From UHGV virus genome UHGV-1978634: 39,633 nt of DNA. One strand, given 5' to 3'. Below, in pieces: positions 12,258-39,633 of this stretch. Source of the DNA: a virus. The notes under the pieces are model-generated. The model was not told where the DNA came from and made no database searches. It saw only the letters and a program-made list of their open reading frames with translations. A program made the translations under genes and the position numbers. Position 1 is the first letter of the stretch. Each line of letters begins with the position of its first letter.

Positions 12258-14681
12258 ATGACAGACATTACAGCCAATGTTGTAATTGGGATGCCTTCGC
12301 AACTCTTCACTATGGCGCGTTCTTTTAAAGCCGTAGCCAATGGAAAAATTTATATCGGTAAAATTGACACTGACCCGGTAAATACTGAAAACCAGATTCA
12401 GGTTTATGTGGAGAACGAAGACGGTTCTCACGTTCCTGTTGCACAGCCAATCGTTATCAATGCTGCTGGATATCCGGTGCATAACGGACAGATTGCCAAA
12501 TTCGTTACTGTGCAAGGTCATTCTATGTCTGTTTATGATGCGTACGGTGTGCAGCAGTTCTATTTTCCGAATGTGCTGAAGTATGACCCCGATCAATTGC
12601 GTCAGCAAATTGAAAGTAATGGGGGCGCATCAATAATAGGGACGGCAACTGGCACTACTGTTCAGGAAGAGTTAAATAAGTTAAAGAGTCTTCCTTTTCT
12701 GTATCCAGAGCTCTATTTTGATGGGAATGAGGTGGATCATACATTAGCGTTTAAAAAAATGTATGCAGACGCAAAGATATTGAAAAAATCGGTTGTTGCT
12801 ACAGGGAATTATGTTCTCACGGCAAGTTCCACAGACCCGATTGAAATAACAGTTAGCTCAGATATGAGTGATGCAACAGTGACGTGCTCTACATATCAGG
12901 GTGGAGATGTCTGGTCTTTGGACAAGACACTATTTGAAATCGCTCAGGATGAAAATGATGTCACTGAAATGTTTTCCGCAGTAAGTTACCTGAAAGGGCA
13001 GACGAGCTTCCCTGTTACCGGATTACAGGGAACTATTATTCTTGATTCTACAGATGTTGTGATGGTGAGAAATAATGGTGGTAGTCTGTCAGACCAACTA
13101 AAAACAGAAGTTCACGAGATTGACGCTGACGGTAACTTGCGTTATCTGAACTATTATATTTATAACGATCGACCTGTTGTTAAATATAAACCTTTTACAA
13201 ATAGCCTGTATTTTAAAATGCCAAAGGTTGTTCTGGATGGGGCAAGAATCAATAATGCTGTTCTTTGCTCAAGGAATAACACCATAATACATGGAAATAC
13301 AGTTGATGTAATAAATAATGGTAGCACAAGGCAGGTAGTAAACTTCCAACGATGCTCAAGAGTTTATGTTAACAACCTATACATGAGTCCTGTTGGATAT
13401 CTTGATGGTACTGCACCCTCCATCCCCGCGGGAAGAAATGAGGCAGCTTATTTTATCCTCACTGAAAAATGTTCTGATGTAACAATGGATAATTGCTGCA
13501 GCATCAATGGATGGGGCGGCTTTGATGGTAATAAATCACGGAATATACATATTAATCGATGTGACCTCCCTGGTGTTGGCGGTCACTACAGCATGTCTGA
13601 TATTTACCTCAATGAGTCGACAGTTCGTTATCATTGCGCGGCGCAAGGTTGGGGAGAATGGGTGGCCACTAACTGTAAACATCTTGGCATGTACGGGAAA
13701 AATACTCTTGAATTCTTCTCTGTGAAGCGAGATTACATGTCATCATGGGATGGTGAGATTCGAGTTGAAGGTTTACGAGTCATGTTACCGTCTACGTGTG
13801 AAGAGTATTTCTTGGTAAGCAGTCTTGAACCAAAATATAATGGTAATTTTATCGCCACAAGCCCGGATGTAGTGATAAAGGACGTGTCTCTTGATCTGAC
13901 TAATGCCTCTGGACTTGTGGAATTTAGAATATTGGATCTCGGCGTGTCAGGCGGAAATAATTATGAGCAATATATGATTCTGCCAAACAACCACTATATT
14001 GAAAATGTAAAGGTTGTAGGGACACGTTCTTATGATTCCAATTTATCCGTCAGCGTTGTCTACAATCAAAGGAACTACTCAAGATTAACGGCCGCTCAGT
14101 TTTCAACTATCGTAGGTAGAGGGAAATACAAGCTTACAGTGAAGGATGTGGATCTCGCTCGGCTTGGGAATACTACGCAGTTATCAAACCCAAGGTATAA
14201 CGTGCAAGCGTTTAAGTTTACCACTTACCGCGTTCCACAGGATGTGAACGTCGATAACAGCTACAATTGCGTCCCTTACATTTCAGCATGGGATGACATG
14301 CTGGTGCGTATAACCAATCAAGACATGGCCATGGGGTATATCGACGGCGCGGTTGCTCGCACTTCCGCTTCATACAACAGGATCTTTTTTAACAACTGTC
14401 GAATCTATGGATTAGGTTGGGGCAGTAGCGGTGGGCAACGAACAGGTATATTTGACTTTACAAGTTGTGTATTTGGATGGTTATCTGCAATCACTGGAGT
14501 TGCGGAGACATCTAATGCAACTATAGGCCTGCTTTTTGGCGCGAATGAGTCCGGTAATAGTGCTACTGGTAAATATTCCGGATGCGCAATTCTGGTCCAG
14601 TCAAACGCTTTCCAGTTGGCTGATTCAACATTCCGTACAAGAGTCCAGACCAACTATACAAACAACGGGGTATACCAATAA
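12258..14681 (+). CDS. Tailspike protein: conserved P22-family head-binding N-terminus plus a long divergent receptor-binding part
   Basis: N-terminus [50 protein letters not shown] is the conserved tailspike head-binding domain; 807 aa total, longer than Sf6/P22/HK620 tailspikes as I recall them. Confidence 0.9.
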
Positions 14682-17560: not shown

Positions 17561-18718
17561 TCACTCCACCTTTTCATCAAGCCAGTCTGCCCACCACTGC
17601 ATCATTTCTCTGCGCTTATCGAGATACTGAGCATGGTTGTAAATTCCGCGTACAGATCCGCCGTTGGCATGTGCCAGTTGTACTTCAATAGCATCAGCAG
17701 GCCATTCGTGCTCGTTCATAATCGTGCTGAATTCATGCCTGAATCCGTGACCGCTTTCCAGACCTTCATAGCCGATTTGTTTGATCACAAGCAGTACCGC
17801 GTTCTCGCAGATTGGCTTCTTCTTATCGTTGCGCCCGGCAAAAACAAACTCTGATACTGGTTTGGTGATTGAGCTTAGCGTAGTGAGAAGTTCAACCACC
17901 TGGTCCGACATCGGGACAACATGAATCTTGCGTCCCTTCATCACACTGGCGTCGATAGTGATAATCCTGTTTTCAAAATCGACGTTCTTCCATTGCATGG
18001 AACGAAGCTCTTTCGTTCTTAGGGCTGTGTAGCGTAAAACTTTGGTCGCAATGAGCGATACGATACTTCCTGAAAATGTTGCCAGTGCTTTGTTGAATGC
18101 AGGGATCTGGTCTGCAGGAAGAAACGGGAAGTTCTTCTTGCGGTATCCCTTCATGGCGTCAGCAAGGTCAGGTGCCGGGTTATATTTAGCCCTTCCGGTG
18201 ACAATAGCGTAACGGAAAACCTCGCCGCATCTTCTGCGTGCTTTGTTGGCTCGCTCCATTGCACCGCGATCTTCAAATCTGCGGATTACTTCCAGAAGTT
18301 GCATCGGCTCAATATCCTGAATTTCAAGGCTGCCGATGATAGGTAAAATGTCGTCATCAAACATTTTGGCAAGTTCAGTTGCATAGCCTACTGACCAGAC
18401 TTGCTTCTTGTGCTCGTACCATTCCTTGTAAATCGCACTAAAGGAATTGTTGTTAGACGAAGCCTTTTTCGCCTTTACCGGATCGATGCCAACCGAGATG
18501 TCTTTCCTCGCAGTCCATGCTTTATCCCTTGCCTCCTGCAAAGTCATAAGCGGATATTTTCCGACGGTCAGGATTTTCTCCTTACCGTCAATCTTGTAGC
18601 GAAGCTGCCATACCTTTTTCCCTGACACAGGGACATAAAGGTACAGGCCATTACCATCGAGAAGGCGGTATGGTTTTTCTTTCGGCTTTGCTGCTTCAAT
18701 CTGCTTAACGGTGAGCAT
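17561..18718 (-). CDS. int: Tyrosine integrase (P4-type)
   Basis: ORF 17561..18754; first ATG with typical N-terminus MLTVKQIEAAKPKEKPYRLLDGNGLYLYV.. at 18718; C-terminal catalytic region ..HGFRH.. Confidence 0.9.
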   Translation of the reverse strand: MLTVKQIEAAKPKEKPYRLLDGNGLYLYVPVSGKKVWQLRYKIDGKEKILTVGKYPLMTLQEARDKAWTARKDISVGIDPVKAKKASSNNNSFSAIYKEWYEHKKQVWSVGYATELAKMFDDDILPIIGSLEIQDIEPMQLLEVIRRFEDRGAMERANKARRRCGEVFRYAIVTGRAKYNPAPDLADAMKGYRKKNFPFLPADQIPAFNKALATFSGSIVSLIATKVLRYTALRTKELRSMQWKNVDFENRIITIDASVMKGRKIHVVPMSDQVVELLTTLSSITKPVSEFVFAGRNDKKKPICENAVLLVIKQIGYEGLESGHGFRHEFSTIMNEHEWPADAIEVQLAHANGGSVRGIYNHAQYLDKRREMMQWWADWLDEKVE

Positions 18719-18967
18719 GGGTAAAAATCCGGTGGGTAAAATTATTTTATCCACTTTTTACCCGTCATGGAGTGCGGCTGTCAACGATCTGACGCGAACC
18801 ATGACGAACTGTAAATCTACGGAAGGCTTGATATTCAGGGGATTTTGCGGACTGGTACGGATGGGAGCGAACTGATAAATGGTGTCCCCTGCAGACATCT
18901 ACTTGAAGCGGCAGGGGATTGATTGGAATGGTGTTTTTTAGATGTGAAAAATATTTTACCCGCTATT
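18719..18967. other. Candidate attP between xis and int, with tRNA-Arg(argW)-like 3-prime-end core at 18880-18894
   Basis: tggtgtcccctgcag is the reverse complement of ctgcaggggacacca, which I recall as the 3-prime end of E. coli argW; flanked by inverted tcccctgc / gcagggga and by five TTTTACCC/GGGTAAAA motifs. Confidence 0.5.
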
Positions 18968-22746: not shown

Positions 22747-23325
22747 TTACTGATGGAGCTTGCGACGGTTTGATTTAGGATTTCCATTACGATTCCCCCT
22801 GTTTCCGTAATTTAATTTTCTGCAATCGATTGGTGTGGGGCGCAGGTAACCATATATTTCTACTTGATATTTTGCTAGAGCATACGCATATTTTGCACCA
22901 TCACATGTTGCATATGAGCCAAGGTGATGTAGTTTTCCATTAACACCTATGTATGCTCTCCATCCATAAGCACACCTTTCTGTGCCTATTTCAGTTCCTT
23001 TATTTCTACTTGTGTTGCTATTGTTTTCCCTACTGGAGACATCTCGTAGGTTAATAAACCTGTTGTCAGCTTTATTTCTGTTGATGTGATCAATTACATT
23101 TACTGGCCATTTCCCGGTAACATATAACCAAGCTAGTCTGTGCGCTAAATACCATTTTTTATTAATATATATCCTTATGTATCCCATCGAGTGCGTACAG
23201 CCAGTTGGTTTGAAACCAATTATATCCCCATTATTGGATTTAATTATCTTCTTGAAAACCCCAGTTTCTTTATCGTAGTGAATGTTGCTAATGAGGTATT
23301 CATATGAAATGTCATTTTTTGACAT
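22747..23325 (-). CDS. HNH homing endonuclease (HNH_3 / AP2-like)
   Basis: 192 aa; ..[54 protein letters not shown].. ; strongly AT-rich ORF. Confidence 0.8.
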
Positions 23326-25351: not shown

Positions 25352-25517
25352 GGACGGCCTTGTTGTTTCAAAATATCCCAAAGTTTTTCGAGCAAACTTT
25401 TCATTCTTGGTTGTTTAAAGTCTGCTCCGGTTAAATATTTTTTCGTGAATGCTGTACCGATAAAATCGGGTTGAAAGGGCGAACCGATGCCGCCCCTGCA
25501 ATAGCGAACTGTTGCAT
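25348..25517 (-). CDS. Small pL-operon gene, possibly frameshifted (weakly cIII-like N-terminus MQQFAIAG)
   Basis: Strong AGGAG RBS plus ATG at 25517 opens a frame that stops after 28 codons; the frame offset by one carries on to a coupled stop at 25348. Confidence 0.3.
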
Positions 25518-25796
25518 AGGATGCTCCTTCTGTTTGATTGCATAACGAAAACGCCTCAAGTGAAGCGTTATTGGTATGCATATAAAAAGGCCCTCACACT
25601 GGAGGGCAAAGAAGATTTCCAACAATCAGAACAAGTCGGCTCCTGTTTAGTTACGAGCGACATTGCTCCGGTATTCACTCGTTGGAATGAATACACAGTG
25701 CAGTGTTTATTCTGTTGTTTATGCCAAAAATAAAGGCCGACTATGCGGCCTGAAATTACTTAACCAATGATGCTGCATTATTCAATTAGGAATAAC

Positions 25797-26180
25797 TTAG
25801 GTGCAAGCCAAATCTTCAACCATTTCGAAATTGAAGGCAATAATTAAAACGCCAATAATTGAGCCAAATATAGGAGCAAATACAGTGCATATATCGTAAT
25901 AAAACGAAGATATAAAATATCTATCGTTTGGACATCCATCTAAAGACGTCCATCTCTCGCCATTATTTCTTGCCGTTCTTGCAAAACTAGGAAGTTTCAT
26001 TGCTGCAATTAAAAGCAACAACCCAGCCACTTGGAAAAGTGCGCTATGGACAAAACTCCATGTTAGCAACTGACGAACAACATCAGGAATCTGTGCCTGG
26101 CTAAATGAAACAGCCGCGTCTATTCCATTACTGGCTTTTTGCAGAAGTTCTACGAGAATCTTGTTTGCTTGTTCTTCCAT
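25797..26180 (-). CDS. Membrane protein in pL operon (candidate superinfection-exclusion-type protein)
   Basis: 127 aa with hydrophobic segments; AT-rich. Confidence 0.55.
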   Translation of the reverse strand: MEEQANKILVELLQKASNGIDAAVSFSQAQIPDVVRQLLTWSFVHSALFQVAGLLLLIAAMKLPSFARTARNNGERWTSLDGCPNDRYFISSFYYDICTVFAPIFGSIIGVLIIAFNFEMVEDLACT

Positions 26181-35093: not shown

Positions 35094-35168
35094 TTTTTAT
35101 TTGGGTCAGTCGTATAAAGGTCATTACGGAAGGCTGTTAACCTTCTTATCGTGGTTCGAGTCCACGCT
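35094..35168 (+). tRNA. tRNA-Asn (anticodon GTT)
   Basis: Manual cloverleaf: acceptor gggtcag/ctgtccc (one mismatch), anticodon stem gaagg/ccttc, loop ctGTTaa, T-arm cgtgg-ttcgagt-ccacg, 3-prime gcca. Confidence 0.7.
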
Positions 35169-35173
35169 GTCCC

Positions 35174-35249
35174 GCCAAATATGCTGGTTTAGCTCCAATG
35201 GTAGAGCAGTCGCCTTGTAAGCGAATGGGTAGCGGTTCAAGTCCGTTAA
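35174..35249 (+). tRNA. tRNA-Thr (anticodon TGT)
   Basis: Manual cloverleaf: acceptor gctggtt/aaccagc, D-arm gctc-caatggta-gagc, anticodon loop ctTGTaa, T-arm agcgg-ttcaagt-ccgtt, 3-prime acca. Confidence 0.8.
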
Positions 35250-35500
35250 CCAGCACCATAACTGAGCCGTAGCCACTGGCTATCCTGAATTCATCAGTGA
35301 TAGTTACGCTGCGGCCTTCTACACATGACCTTCGTGAAAGCGGGTGGCAAGAGGTTGCGCTAACAACCTCCTGCCGTTTTGCCCGTGCATATCGGTCACG
35401 AACAAATCTGATTGCTAAACACAGTAGCCTGGATTTGTTCTATCAGTAATCGACCTTATTCCTAATTAAATAGAGCAAATCCCCTTATTGGGGGTAAGAC

Positions 35501-38409: not shown

Positions 38410-38832
38410 ATGGCGACTGAACCAAAAGCTGGTCGCCCCTCTGATTATATGCCGGAGGTGGCTGACGATATCTGCTCGTTGCTTTCTTCTGGCGAAAGTT
38501 TGCTGAAAGTATGTAAGCGTCCTGGTATGCCGGATAAGTCCACTGTTTTCCGCTGGTTGGCAAAGCATGAGGATTTTCGCGACAAGTACGCGAAGGCAAC
38601 TGAGGCACGAGCTGATTCTATTTTCGAAGAGATATTCGAAATTGCTGACAATGCGATTCCAGATGCTGCTGAGGTGGCAAAGGCAAGACTTCGCGTTGAT
38701 ACCCGCAAATGGGCGCTGGCCCGAATGAATCCCCGTAAGTATGGCGACAAGGTAACAAACGAGCTTGTCGGCAAAGACGGCGGCGCAATCCAGATTGAAA
38801 CATCACCGATGAGTACTCTATTCGGAAAATGA
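38410..38832 (+). CDS. Terminase small subunit (Sf6 gp1-like)
   Basis: ORF 38404..38832; MATEPKAGRPSDYMPEVADDICSLLSSGESLLKVCKRPGMPDKSTVFRWLAKHEDFRDKYAKATEARADS.. matches the Sf6 small terminase as I recall it. Confidence 0.9.
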   Translation: MATEPKAGRPSDYMPEVADDICSLLSSGESLLKVCKRPGMPDKSTVFRWLAKHEDFRDKYAKATEARADSIFEEIFEIADNAIPDAAEVAKARLRVDTRKWALARMNPRKYGDKVTNELVGKDGGAIQIETSPMSTLFGK

Positions 38833-39633
38833 CCTCGATTAATCCTATCTTTGAACCGTTCATTGAGGCGCATCGCTACAAAGTCGCCAAAGGCGGTCGA
38901 GGTAGCGGTAAGTCATGGGCAATTGCGAGGCTGCTTGTTGAAGCGGCGCGTCGGCAGCCTGTGCGTATTCTCTGCGCTCGTGAACTGCAAAACAGTATCA
39001 GCGATTCGGTAATCCGGTTGCTTGAAGACACCATCGAGCGGGAAGGGTATTCGGCTGAGTTTGAAATTCAGCGTTCAATGATTCGTCATCTCGGAACGAA
39101 CGCTGAATTCATGTTCTACGGCATCAAAAACAACCCGACGAAGATTAAATCGCTCGAAGGCATTGATATCTGCTGGGTGGAAGAAGCGGAAGCGGTAACG
39201 AAGGAATCATGGGATATCCTGATTCCAACCATCCGCAAGCCATTTTCCGAAATATGGGTGAGCTTCAACCCGAAAAACATCCTCGACGATACCTATCAGC
39301 GATTCGTCGTAAATCCTCCCGATGACATTTGCCTGCTGACGGTGAACTACACCGACAACCCGCACTTTCCTGAAGTCCTCCGTCTGGAGATGGAAGAGTG
39401 TAAACGCAGAAATCCGACACTGTATCGTCACATCTGGCTTGGTGAGCCAGTAAGCGCAAGTGATATGGCAATCATCAAACGTGAATGGCTTGAAGCTGCA
39501 ACTGATGCGCACAAGAAACTCGGATGGAAAGCGAAAGGCGCTGTTGTTTCTGCGCATGACCCGTCAGATACAGGGCCAGATGCTAAAGGTTACGCATCGC
39601 GCCACGGTTCGGTAGTTAAGCGCATTGCCGAAG
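38829..39633 (+). CDS. Terminase large subunit, N-terminal portion (runs off the window end)
   Basis: ATG overlaps the small-terminase stop (ATGA); Walker A KGGRGSGKS; open to the last base. Confidence 0.9.
   Translation, partial: MTSINPIFEPFIEAHRYKVAKGGRGSGKSWAIARLLVEAARRQPVRILCARELQNSISDSVIRLLEDTIEREGYSAEFEIQRSMIRHLGTNAEFMFYGIKNNPTKIKSLEGIDICWVEEAEAVTKESWDILIPTIRKPFSEIWVSFNPKNILDDTYQRFVVNPPDDICLLTVNYTDNPHFPEVLRLEMEECKRRNPTLYRHIWLGEPVSASDMAIIKREWLEAATDAHKKLGWKAKGAVVSAHDPSDTGPDAKGYASRHGSVVKRIAE

What the first reader, a model, noticed from the sequence alone, without database searches (positions are those of the whole stretch)
38829..39633. Window starts and ends inside the large terminase gene, but the ends do not join in frame
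The N-terminal 268 codons sit at the window end and the C-terminal ~150 codons at the window start, with roughly 50 codons of the expected protein absent. The underlying record is therefore probably a circularly permuted or terminally redundant phage contig, or a tandem arrangement, rather than a simple circle closed at the window edges.
Basis: inference. Interest (0 to 1): 0.3.

Follow-up and report, generated by a model that had tools for sequence, protein, structure and literature searches.

The report
Phage contig opened inside terminase gene
The window is one ordinary Sf6-like E. coli phage genome written as a line that starts and stops inside its large terminase gene, 158 bases short of closing the circle and carrying six small errors, so the split gene comes from how the record was assembled and is not biology.

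Summary
Window 38829-39633 encodes codons 1-268 (plus one base) of an Sf6-type large terminase (TerL). Window 1-451 encodes codons 322-470 and the stop. Every relative has exactly 158 nt between the two ends, so joining the ends directly runs into a stop after 9 codons.

The window has no substitutions against an argW-integrated prophage of E. coli GCA_052515165.1 over about 38.2 kb. That prophage has an intact 470-aa TerL. The only differences are six 1-nt indels private to the window, and two of them break essential genes (TerL and the coat protein).

The window crosses an intact attP (18878-18894). Its gene order is therefore that of the excised or vegetative phage, not of a single integrated prophage. 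It has no terminal repeat and no second terminase copy.

Best reading: a near-complete linear contig (39,633 of 39,791 bp) of the circular map of a headful-packaging phage, from an indel-prone assembly that failed to close. "Terminally redundant" and "tandem" have no support. Interest is low.

The parts
38829..39633 (+). Large terminase (TerL, Sf6 gp2-like) codons 1-268 plus the first base of codon 269. This is the ATPase domain and the start of the nuclease domain. It runs off the window end.
   Evidence: translation. (PDB 4IDH/4IFE residues 1-268, E 1.9e-183). (PF04466 Terminase_3). (100% identical to CP146507 terL nt 1-805).
1..451 (+). TerL codons 322-470 plus the TAA stop (nuclease domain C-terminus). 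It starts at a first codon position and is broken by a +1 frameshift at 195.
   Evidence: Sf6 gp2 residues 322-470, E 1.3e-98 after removing the extra base.
195..195 (+). Extra G (GCAGA[G]CCCC) private to this window. It shifts TerL from frame 1 to frame 2.
   Evidence: Absent from 120 IMG/VR contigs. The best E. coli chromosome matches lack it, and no E. coli record matched window 1-460 at 100%. The exact pattern was not found in viral, metagenome or genome collections.
38410..38832 (+). Small terminase (TerS, Sf6 gp1-like). Its stop overlaps the TerL start (ATGA).
   Evidence: PF20901 Sf6_terminase, E 7.8e-45. (called gene of 140 aa in the identical prophage).
454..2580 (+). Portal protein gene directly after TerL, showing that the window start continues normally into the head genes.
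   Evidence: PF16510 P22_portal, 708 aa.
18878..18894 (.). attP core AATGGTGTCCCCTGCAG, equal to the 3' end of tRNA-Arg(CCT) argW. The window is continuous across it, meaning excised or vegetative gene order.
   Evidence: identity to the attR side ends at 18894, and identity to the attL side begins at 18878; tRNA-Arg at the junction in L123.
17561..18718 (-). Tyrosine integrase next to attP.
   Evidence: PF00589 and others, 385 aa. In chromosomes it always lies next to argW/yfdC.
3490..4760 (+). Major capsid (P22-type coat) gene, split into two ORFs (3490-4173 and 4239-4760) by loss of one G after 4151 (G5 to G4). This is a second private frameshift in an essential gene.
   Evidence: P22_CoatProtein profile positions 5-224 and 262-423 fall in separate ORFs. 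(intact 423 aa in identical prophages).
25432..25823 (.). Cluster of four private 1-nt indels: -A after 25432, -T after 25670, +T at 25778, +T at 25823. They lie in and between two small early-left genes.
   Evidence: Two independent assemblies (NCBI GCA_052515165.1 and Logan SRR27905034) agree with each other against the window.

Best explanation
The window is a whole contig: one copy of the genome of a temperate Sf6/HK620-like (P22-like, headful-packaging) E. coli podophage. It is written as a line that happens to open inside the large terminase gene.

The true map is a 39,791-bp circle. The contig holds 39,633 bp and lacks the 158 bp that would close it (TerL codons 269-321).

The DNA that was sequenced was in the excised, replicating or packaged form, because attP is intact. 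This is inferred.

The gap, the extra G in TerL and five other single-base indels are errors of an indel-prone sequencing and assembly process that did not circularise cleanly. They are not features of the phage. The real phage has one intact 470-aa TerL.

The exact cause of the gap cannot be determined from the sequence. Candidates are bases dropped at the junction by a long-read assembler, low coverage, or a graph bubble.
For: Shown:
1. The two ends map 158 nt apart on one gene in all relatives.
2. Against the argW prophage of GCA_052515165.1 there are 0 mismatches and 6 one-base indels over about 38.2 kb.
3. Other independent assemblies side with that reference against the window at every one of the six sites: L127 at the four clustered sites, L124 at 4151, and CP146507 plus 120 IMG/VR contigs at 195.
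4. Two of the indels break the essential TerL and coat genes, yet no substitutions have accumulated. Four of the six lie in or extend base runs.
5. The frameshifted products are not on record in any public assembly.
6. The window is continuous across attP.
7. There is no terminal repeat, no end overlap and no second copy of the missing piece.
8. Neither the missing piece nor its borders are unusual in diversity, and locus ends in 120 related IMG/VR loci do not cluster there.

Literature:
- Gapped circularisation is a known artefact. [quoted passage not shown]
- Sf6 packages by headful, so its assemblies give circular maps (PMC5630979, PMC9915841).
Against: - The source record and its reads were not found. 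The sequencing technology and the assembler are therefore inferred, not known.
- Two of the six indels (195 and 25670) are not in homopolymers.
- Four indels cluster within 400 bp, which a uniform error process does not predict.
- Nothing in the sequence says why the break fell exactly here.
Confidence: 0.85

Rival explanations
1. The indels are real. This would be a defective derivative of the prophage that can still excise and replicate as a circle, but cannot make capsids or package DNA because TerL and the coat gene are frameshifted. The contig would have been assembled from that excised DNA.
For: attP is intact while TerL and coat are both broken. Two indels are not homopolymer-associated.
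Against: Six indels against zero substitutions over 38 kb is not a natural decay spectrum. No other public assembly carries any of the frameshifted products. This rival still needs a separate explanation for the 158-nt gap.
Confidence: 0.05
2. The window was cut from a longer record holding two or more head-to-tail phage copies (a tandem prophage or concatemer). The terminase is then intact in the record and only looks split.
For: A tandem array would also show an attP-type junction between copies. The full record cannot be inspected.
Against: The window would have to be one genome length minus 158 nt by coincidence. The identical prophage in GCA_052515165.1 is single. There is no duplicated sequence in the window. 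This rival does not explain the six private indels.
Confidence: 0.05
3. The molecule is a true 39,633-bp circle with a genuine 158-bp out-of-frame deletion in TerL, and the record happens to be opened exactly at the deletion junction.
For: None beyond the missing 158 nt. A mixed population of wild type and deletion variant could make an assembly graph break exactly at the variant.
Against: There is no microhomology at the borders...GCCGAAG|GTCTG and ...CACGATG|TTCAAG. Opening the record at the junction by chance has odds of about 1 in 40,000. None of the related TerL sequences examined shows a deletion here; the only truncated alignments stop at locus ends or at a mosaic boundary.
Confidence: 0.02

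Closest known systems
Shigella phage Sf6 (AF547987 / NC_005344): gene 1/gene 2 terminase and headful packaging
   Same: TerS and TerL are 97-99% identical at the DNA level. The TerL pieces align to gp2 crystal structures 4IDH/4IFE/5C10 over residues 1-268 and 322-470. The gene order TerS-TerL-portal-scaffold-coat and onward is the same. It is a headful, circularly permuted phage type (PMC5630979, PMC9915841).
   Different: The Sf6 record opens at gene 1 and has an intact 470-aa gp2. This record opens inside gene 2, lacks 158 nt and has a +1 frameshift. The tailspike (807 aa), gtrABC and much of the early region are different mosaic modules; only about 51% of window 1-25000 is covered.
argW-integrated prophage of E. 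coli GCA_052515165.1 (contig DBKBKR010000001.1, about 991.4-1031.1 kb)
   Same: It is the same phage: 0 mismatches over about 38.2 kb, with the same att core.
   Different: It is in prophage order (attL-early-late-tailspike-gtr-int-attR) with an intact TerL and coat gene. The window is in excised order, lacks 158 nt and has six 1-nt indels.
Gapped circularisation of circular replicons by long-read assemblers (Wick and Holt benchmark, PMC6966772)
   Same: A circular map comes out as a line with tens to hundreds of bases missing at the start/end junction, together with residual small indels.
   Different: The assembler and read type of this record are unknown. This link is an inference from the error pattern only.

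Membership tests
Sf6-type (Terminase_3 / PBSX family) large terminase | N-terminal packaging ATPase domain | tested here: met
   PF04466, E 8.2e-42, profile positions 2-201 of 201. Sf6 gp2 residues 1-268, E 1.9e-183.
Sf6-type (Terminase_3 / PBSX family) large terminase | C-terminal RNase H-like nuclease domain | tested here: met
   The C-terminal piece aligns to the Sf6 gp2 nuclease-domain structures 5C10/5C12 at residues 130-278. The middle of the domain (codons 269-321) is absent from the window.
Sf6-type (Terminase_3 / PBSX family) large terminase | One uninterrupted ORF of about 470 codons | tested here: not met
   158 nt are missing at the window edges and there is an extra G at 195. The gene is intact in the otherwise identical prophage.
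Headful (pac) phage with circularly permuted, terminally redundant DNA | Terminase of a clade shown experimentally to package by headful | tested here: met
   97-99% DNA identity to Sf6 terminase genes. Sf6 headful packaging is from the literature (PMC5630979, PMC9915841).
Headful (pac) phage with circularly permuted, terminally redundant DNA | Sequence assembles to a circular map (the ends abut on the reference) | tested here: met
   The ends map 158 nt apart on one gene, in the same orientation.
Headful (pac) phage with circularly permuted, terminally redundant DNA | Terminal redundancy visible in the record | tested here: not met
   No end overlap and no terminal direct repeat.
Headful (pac) phage with circularly permuted, terminally redundant DNA | Physical ends of virion DNA are permuted | not testable with these tools
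   This needs reads or restriction mapping of virion DNA.
Single integrated prophage | attL and attR junctions with bacterial DNA | tested here: not met
   The window is continuous across the 17-bp att core with phage DNA on both sides. It contains no argW tRNA.
Tandem or concatemeric array | A second copy of any phage segment in the record | tested here: not met
   No long direct repeats. The missing 158 nt are absent elsewhere in the window. The record outside the window could not be examined.

The most novel reading that the evidence does not exclude
The contig break and the frameshifts are real. The sample would hold a packaging-dead derivative of this prophage, with TerL and coat frameshifted and possibly a TerL deletion variant, that still excises and replicates as a free circle. 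That would be a defective prophage persisting as an extrachromosomal replicon.
Probability: 0.04. Interest if true: 0.3.

Novelty: not a real feature. Interest (0 to 1): 0.05.

Why it matters
It matters only for data quality. The record should be treated as an unclosed, indel-containing draft of a known kind of phage. Automatic annotation of it would wrongly report a truncated or pseudogenised terminase and a split capsid gene. The phage itself is an ordinary Sf6-like, argW-integrating temperate podophage carrying gtrABC, and it is already present with no substitutions as a prophage in public E. coli genomes.

Tried and rejected
1. Looked for the source record with the frameshift-specific 43-mer in IMG/VR, JGI metagenomes and GTDB genomes. 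It was not found.

2. Looked for the source through four proteins unique to the frameshifts. No such gene is on record.

3. Searched GenBank phages, PLSDB plasmids and complete E. coli genomes. No near-identical whole record turned up, only mosaic relatives. The closest phage record (HF4s) covers 56% of window 1-25000, and the closest E. coli record covers 49% of window 14700-39633.

4. Tested whether the break coincides with a terminal repeat or end overlap. There is none.

5. Tested whether the missing piece was misplaced elsewhere in the window. It is not there.

6. Tested for a recurrent contig-end or diversity hotspot in 120 relatives. The piece has 2.9% divergence, within the 0.3-6.5% seen along the gene, and locus ends are scattered.

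7. First assumed attP lay between gtrA and int. This was rejected. In chromosomes int stays next to gtrABC, and the junction is on the 5' side of int at 18878-18894.

8. Considered programmed frameshifting in TerL. Rejected because none of the relatives examined has the extra base.

9. Tried to see whether the Logan contig SRR27905034_851 (39,732 bp) is another permuted near-full circle. The tool merges similar places, so its other end could not be fetched.

Full report
**Observation**

The last 805 bases of the window (38829-39633) start with an ATG that overlaps the stop of the upstream small-terminase gene (ATGA). They read as 268 codons plus one base. This piece matches phage Sf6 gene 2 protein (large terminase, TerL) residues 1-268 at E=1.9e-183 and Pfam Terminase_3.

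The first 451 bases of the window encode the last 149 residues and the stop codon of the same protein, Sf6 gp2 residues 322-470 (E=1.3e-98). The portal gene follows immediately.

In every relative examined, exactly 158 nt lie between the window's last and first base:
- Sf6, HK620, Kapi1 and Gally.
- The E. coli CP146507 prophage.
- A prophage with no substitutions against the window, in GCA_052515165.1.

Because 805 mod 3 = 1 and window base 1 is a first codon position, a direct join is out of frame and stops after 9 codons.

An extra G at window 195 (GCAGA[G]CCCC) shifts it from frame 1 to frame 2.

**What the window is**

It is a P22-like podophage genome of the Sf6/HK620 group. The gene order is TerL', portal, scaffold, coat, head completion, ejection proteins, an 807-aa tailspike, gtrCBA, integrase, early-left genes, cI/cro, replication, nin, Q, two tRNAs, lysis, TerS, 'TerL.

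Exact-protein look-ups led to an argW-integrated prophage in E. coli assembly GCA_052515165.1. Across 38.2 kb of overlap the window has 0 mismatches and six single-base indels against that prophage.

The prophage's TerL is an intact 470-aa gene. Adding its 158 nt to the window gives a genome of 39,791 bp. The six indels net to zero.

**Excised gene order, not a single integrated prophage**

In the chromosome, identity to the window ends at window 18894 on one side, where tRNA-Arg(CCT) argW and yfdC follow. It begins at window 18878 on the other side, where dsdC follows.

The 17-bp overlap AATGGTGTCCCCTGCAG is the att core. The window runs straight through it, so the window carries attP.

The sequenced DNA was therefore excised, replicating or packaged phage DNA, or formally a junction between tandem copies. 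It was not a single integrated prophage. My first assumption, that attP lies between gtrA and int, was wrong and was corrected by these data.

**Nature of the gap and the frameshift**

The six indels are:

| Window position | Change | Context and effect |
|---|---|---|
| 195 | +G | breaks TerL |
| after 4151 | -G | G5 to G4; splits the coat gene into 3490-4173 and 4239-4760 (Pfam P22_CoatProtein halves) |
| after 25432 | -A | A4 to A3 |
| after 25670 | -T | not in a base run |
| 25778 | +T | extends a T |
| 25823 | +T | extends a T run |

At each site, independent assemblies agree with the reference against the window:
- NCBI GCA_052515165.1 and Logan SRR27905034 (L127) at the four clustered sites.
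- Logan DRR784582 (L124) at 4151.
- CP146507 at 195.
- 120 IMG/VR contigs lack the extra G.

None of the proteins that these frameshifts would create exists in the public gene index. The frameshift 43-mer is absent from the viral, metagenome and genome collections.

Six indels with no substitutions, mostly in or extending base runs, and hitting two indispensable genes in DNA that was evidently active: this is the signature of sequencing or consensus error, not of evolution.

The window has no terminal direct repeat and no end overlap, and the missing 158 nt are not found elsewhere in it.

Nothing marks the break as a special site:
- Its borders show no microhomology.
- The 158-nt piece is not unusually variable or conserved, at 2.9% divergence against 0.3-6.5% along the gene.
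- Locus ends in 120 relatives do not cluster there.

**Mechanism, with shown and inferred steps marked**

- Shown: there is one phage genome's worth of sequence, in circularly permuted order, 158 nt short of closure, with six private indels.
- Established knowledge: Sf6-type phages package by headful from a concatemer. Initiation cuts are spread over about 1.8 kb, and virion DNA is permuted and terminally redundant, so assemblies yield a circular map with an arbitrary opening point (PMC5630979; PMC9915841 citing Casjens et al. 2004).
- Established knowledge: long-read assemblers commonly lose tens (Flye) to hundreds (Raven) of bases at the junction of circular contigs and leave small indels (PMC6966772).
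- Inferred: this record is such an unclosed draft. Its opening point inside TerL is arbitrary; TerL is 3.6% of the genome.
- Unknown: the precise cause of the 158-nt loss (assembler junction loss, low coverage or a graph bubble) cannot be told from the sequence.

**Rivals**

1. The indels are real and this is a packaging-dead but excision-competent derivative. The 6:0 indel-to-substitution ratio and the absence of the frameshifted products elsewhere argue against it.
2. The window is a slice of a tandem array. That requires a coincidental window length, and there is no duplication in the window.
3. A true 158-bp deletion in a closed circle, opened exactly at the junction. This has very low prior odds and no microhomology.

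None of these is excluded outright without the reads.

**Comparison and membership**

The gene is an Sf6-type (Terminase_3/PBSX) large terminase by both domains, but as written in this record it fails the "one intact ORF" criterion.

The record fits a headful-phage circular map, but it shows no terminal redundancy. It fails the tests for a single integrated prophage (no attL/attR junctions with bacterial DNA) and shows no evidence of a tandem array within the window.

**Verdict**

There is no evidence for terminal redundancy or tandem copies. The feature is a record or assembly artefact in an already-known kind of phage. Interest is low.

Noticed in passing
window 3490-4760 (indel after 4151): The major capsid (P22-type coat) gene is split into two ORFs by loss of one G in a G5 run. 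It is intact (423 aa) in prophages that are otherwise identical.
   Followed up: yes
window 25432-25823: Four private 1-nt indels (-A, -T, +T, +T, net zero) cluster within 400 bp of the early-left region. They alter a 56-aa and a 140-aa hypothetical gene. The clustering is not explained by a uniform error rate and may mark a low-quality stretch.
   Followed up: partly
window 18878-18894: The attP core AATGGTGTCCCCTGCAG is identical to the 3' end of tRNA-Arg(CCT) argW. Integrase and gtrABC lie on the same side of attP, so in lysogens int-gtrABC sit together next to argW, as in the K-12 CPS-53 remnant (that comparison is from memory).
   Followed up: yes
window 35103-35258: Two phage-borne tRNA genes, tRNA-Asn(GTT) and tRNA-Thr(TGT), lie between the Q antiterminator gene and the holin gene.
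   Followed up: no
window 12258-14681: The 807-aa tailspike has only the N-terminal P22 Head_binding domain recognised by Pfam. Its receptor-binding part differs from Sf6 and HK620. The exact protein occurs in 44 blocks of the public assembly collection.
   Followed up: no
window about 398 (TerL nt 1360): There is a sharp mosaic boundary 53 nt before the TerL stop. About half of 120 related contigs, and phages Sf101, Kapi1 and CUS-3, lose similarity from here into the portal gene.
   Followed up: partly
L127 (Logan SRR27905034_851, 39,732 bp contig): Another assembly of the same phage gives a contig about 59 bp shorter than the 39,791-bp circle, ending inside the Rz-like lysis gene (window about 36379). 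It may be a second near-complete permuted contig broken at a different site. Its other end could not be fetched.
   Followed up: partly
window 22747-23325 (-): A free-standing HNH endonuclease gene (PF13392) sits among the early-left genes. Related phages carry HNH homing endonuclease genes next to the terminase instead (annotations).
   Followed up: no
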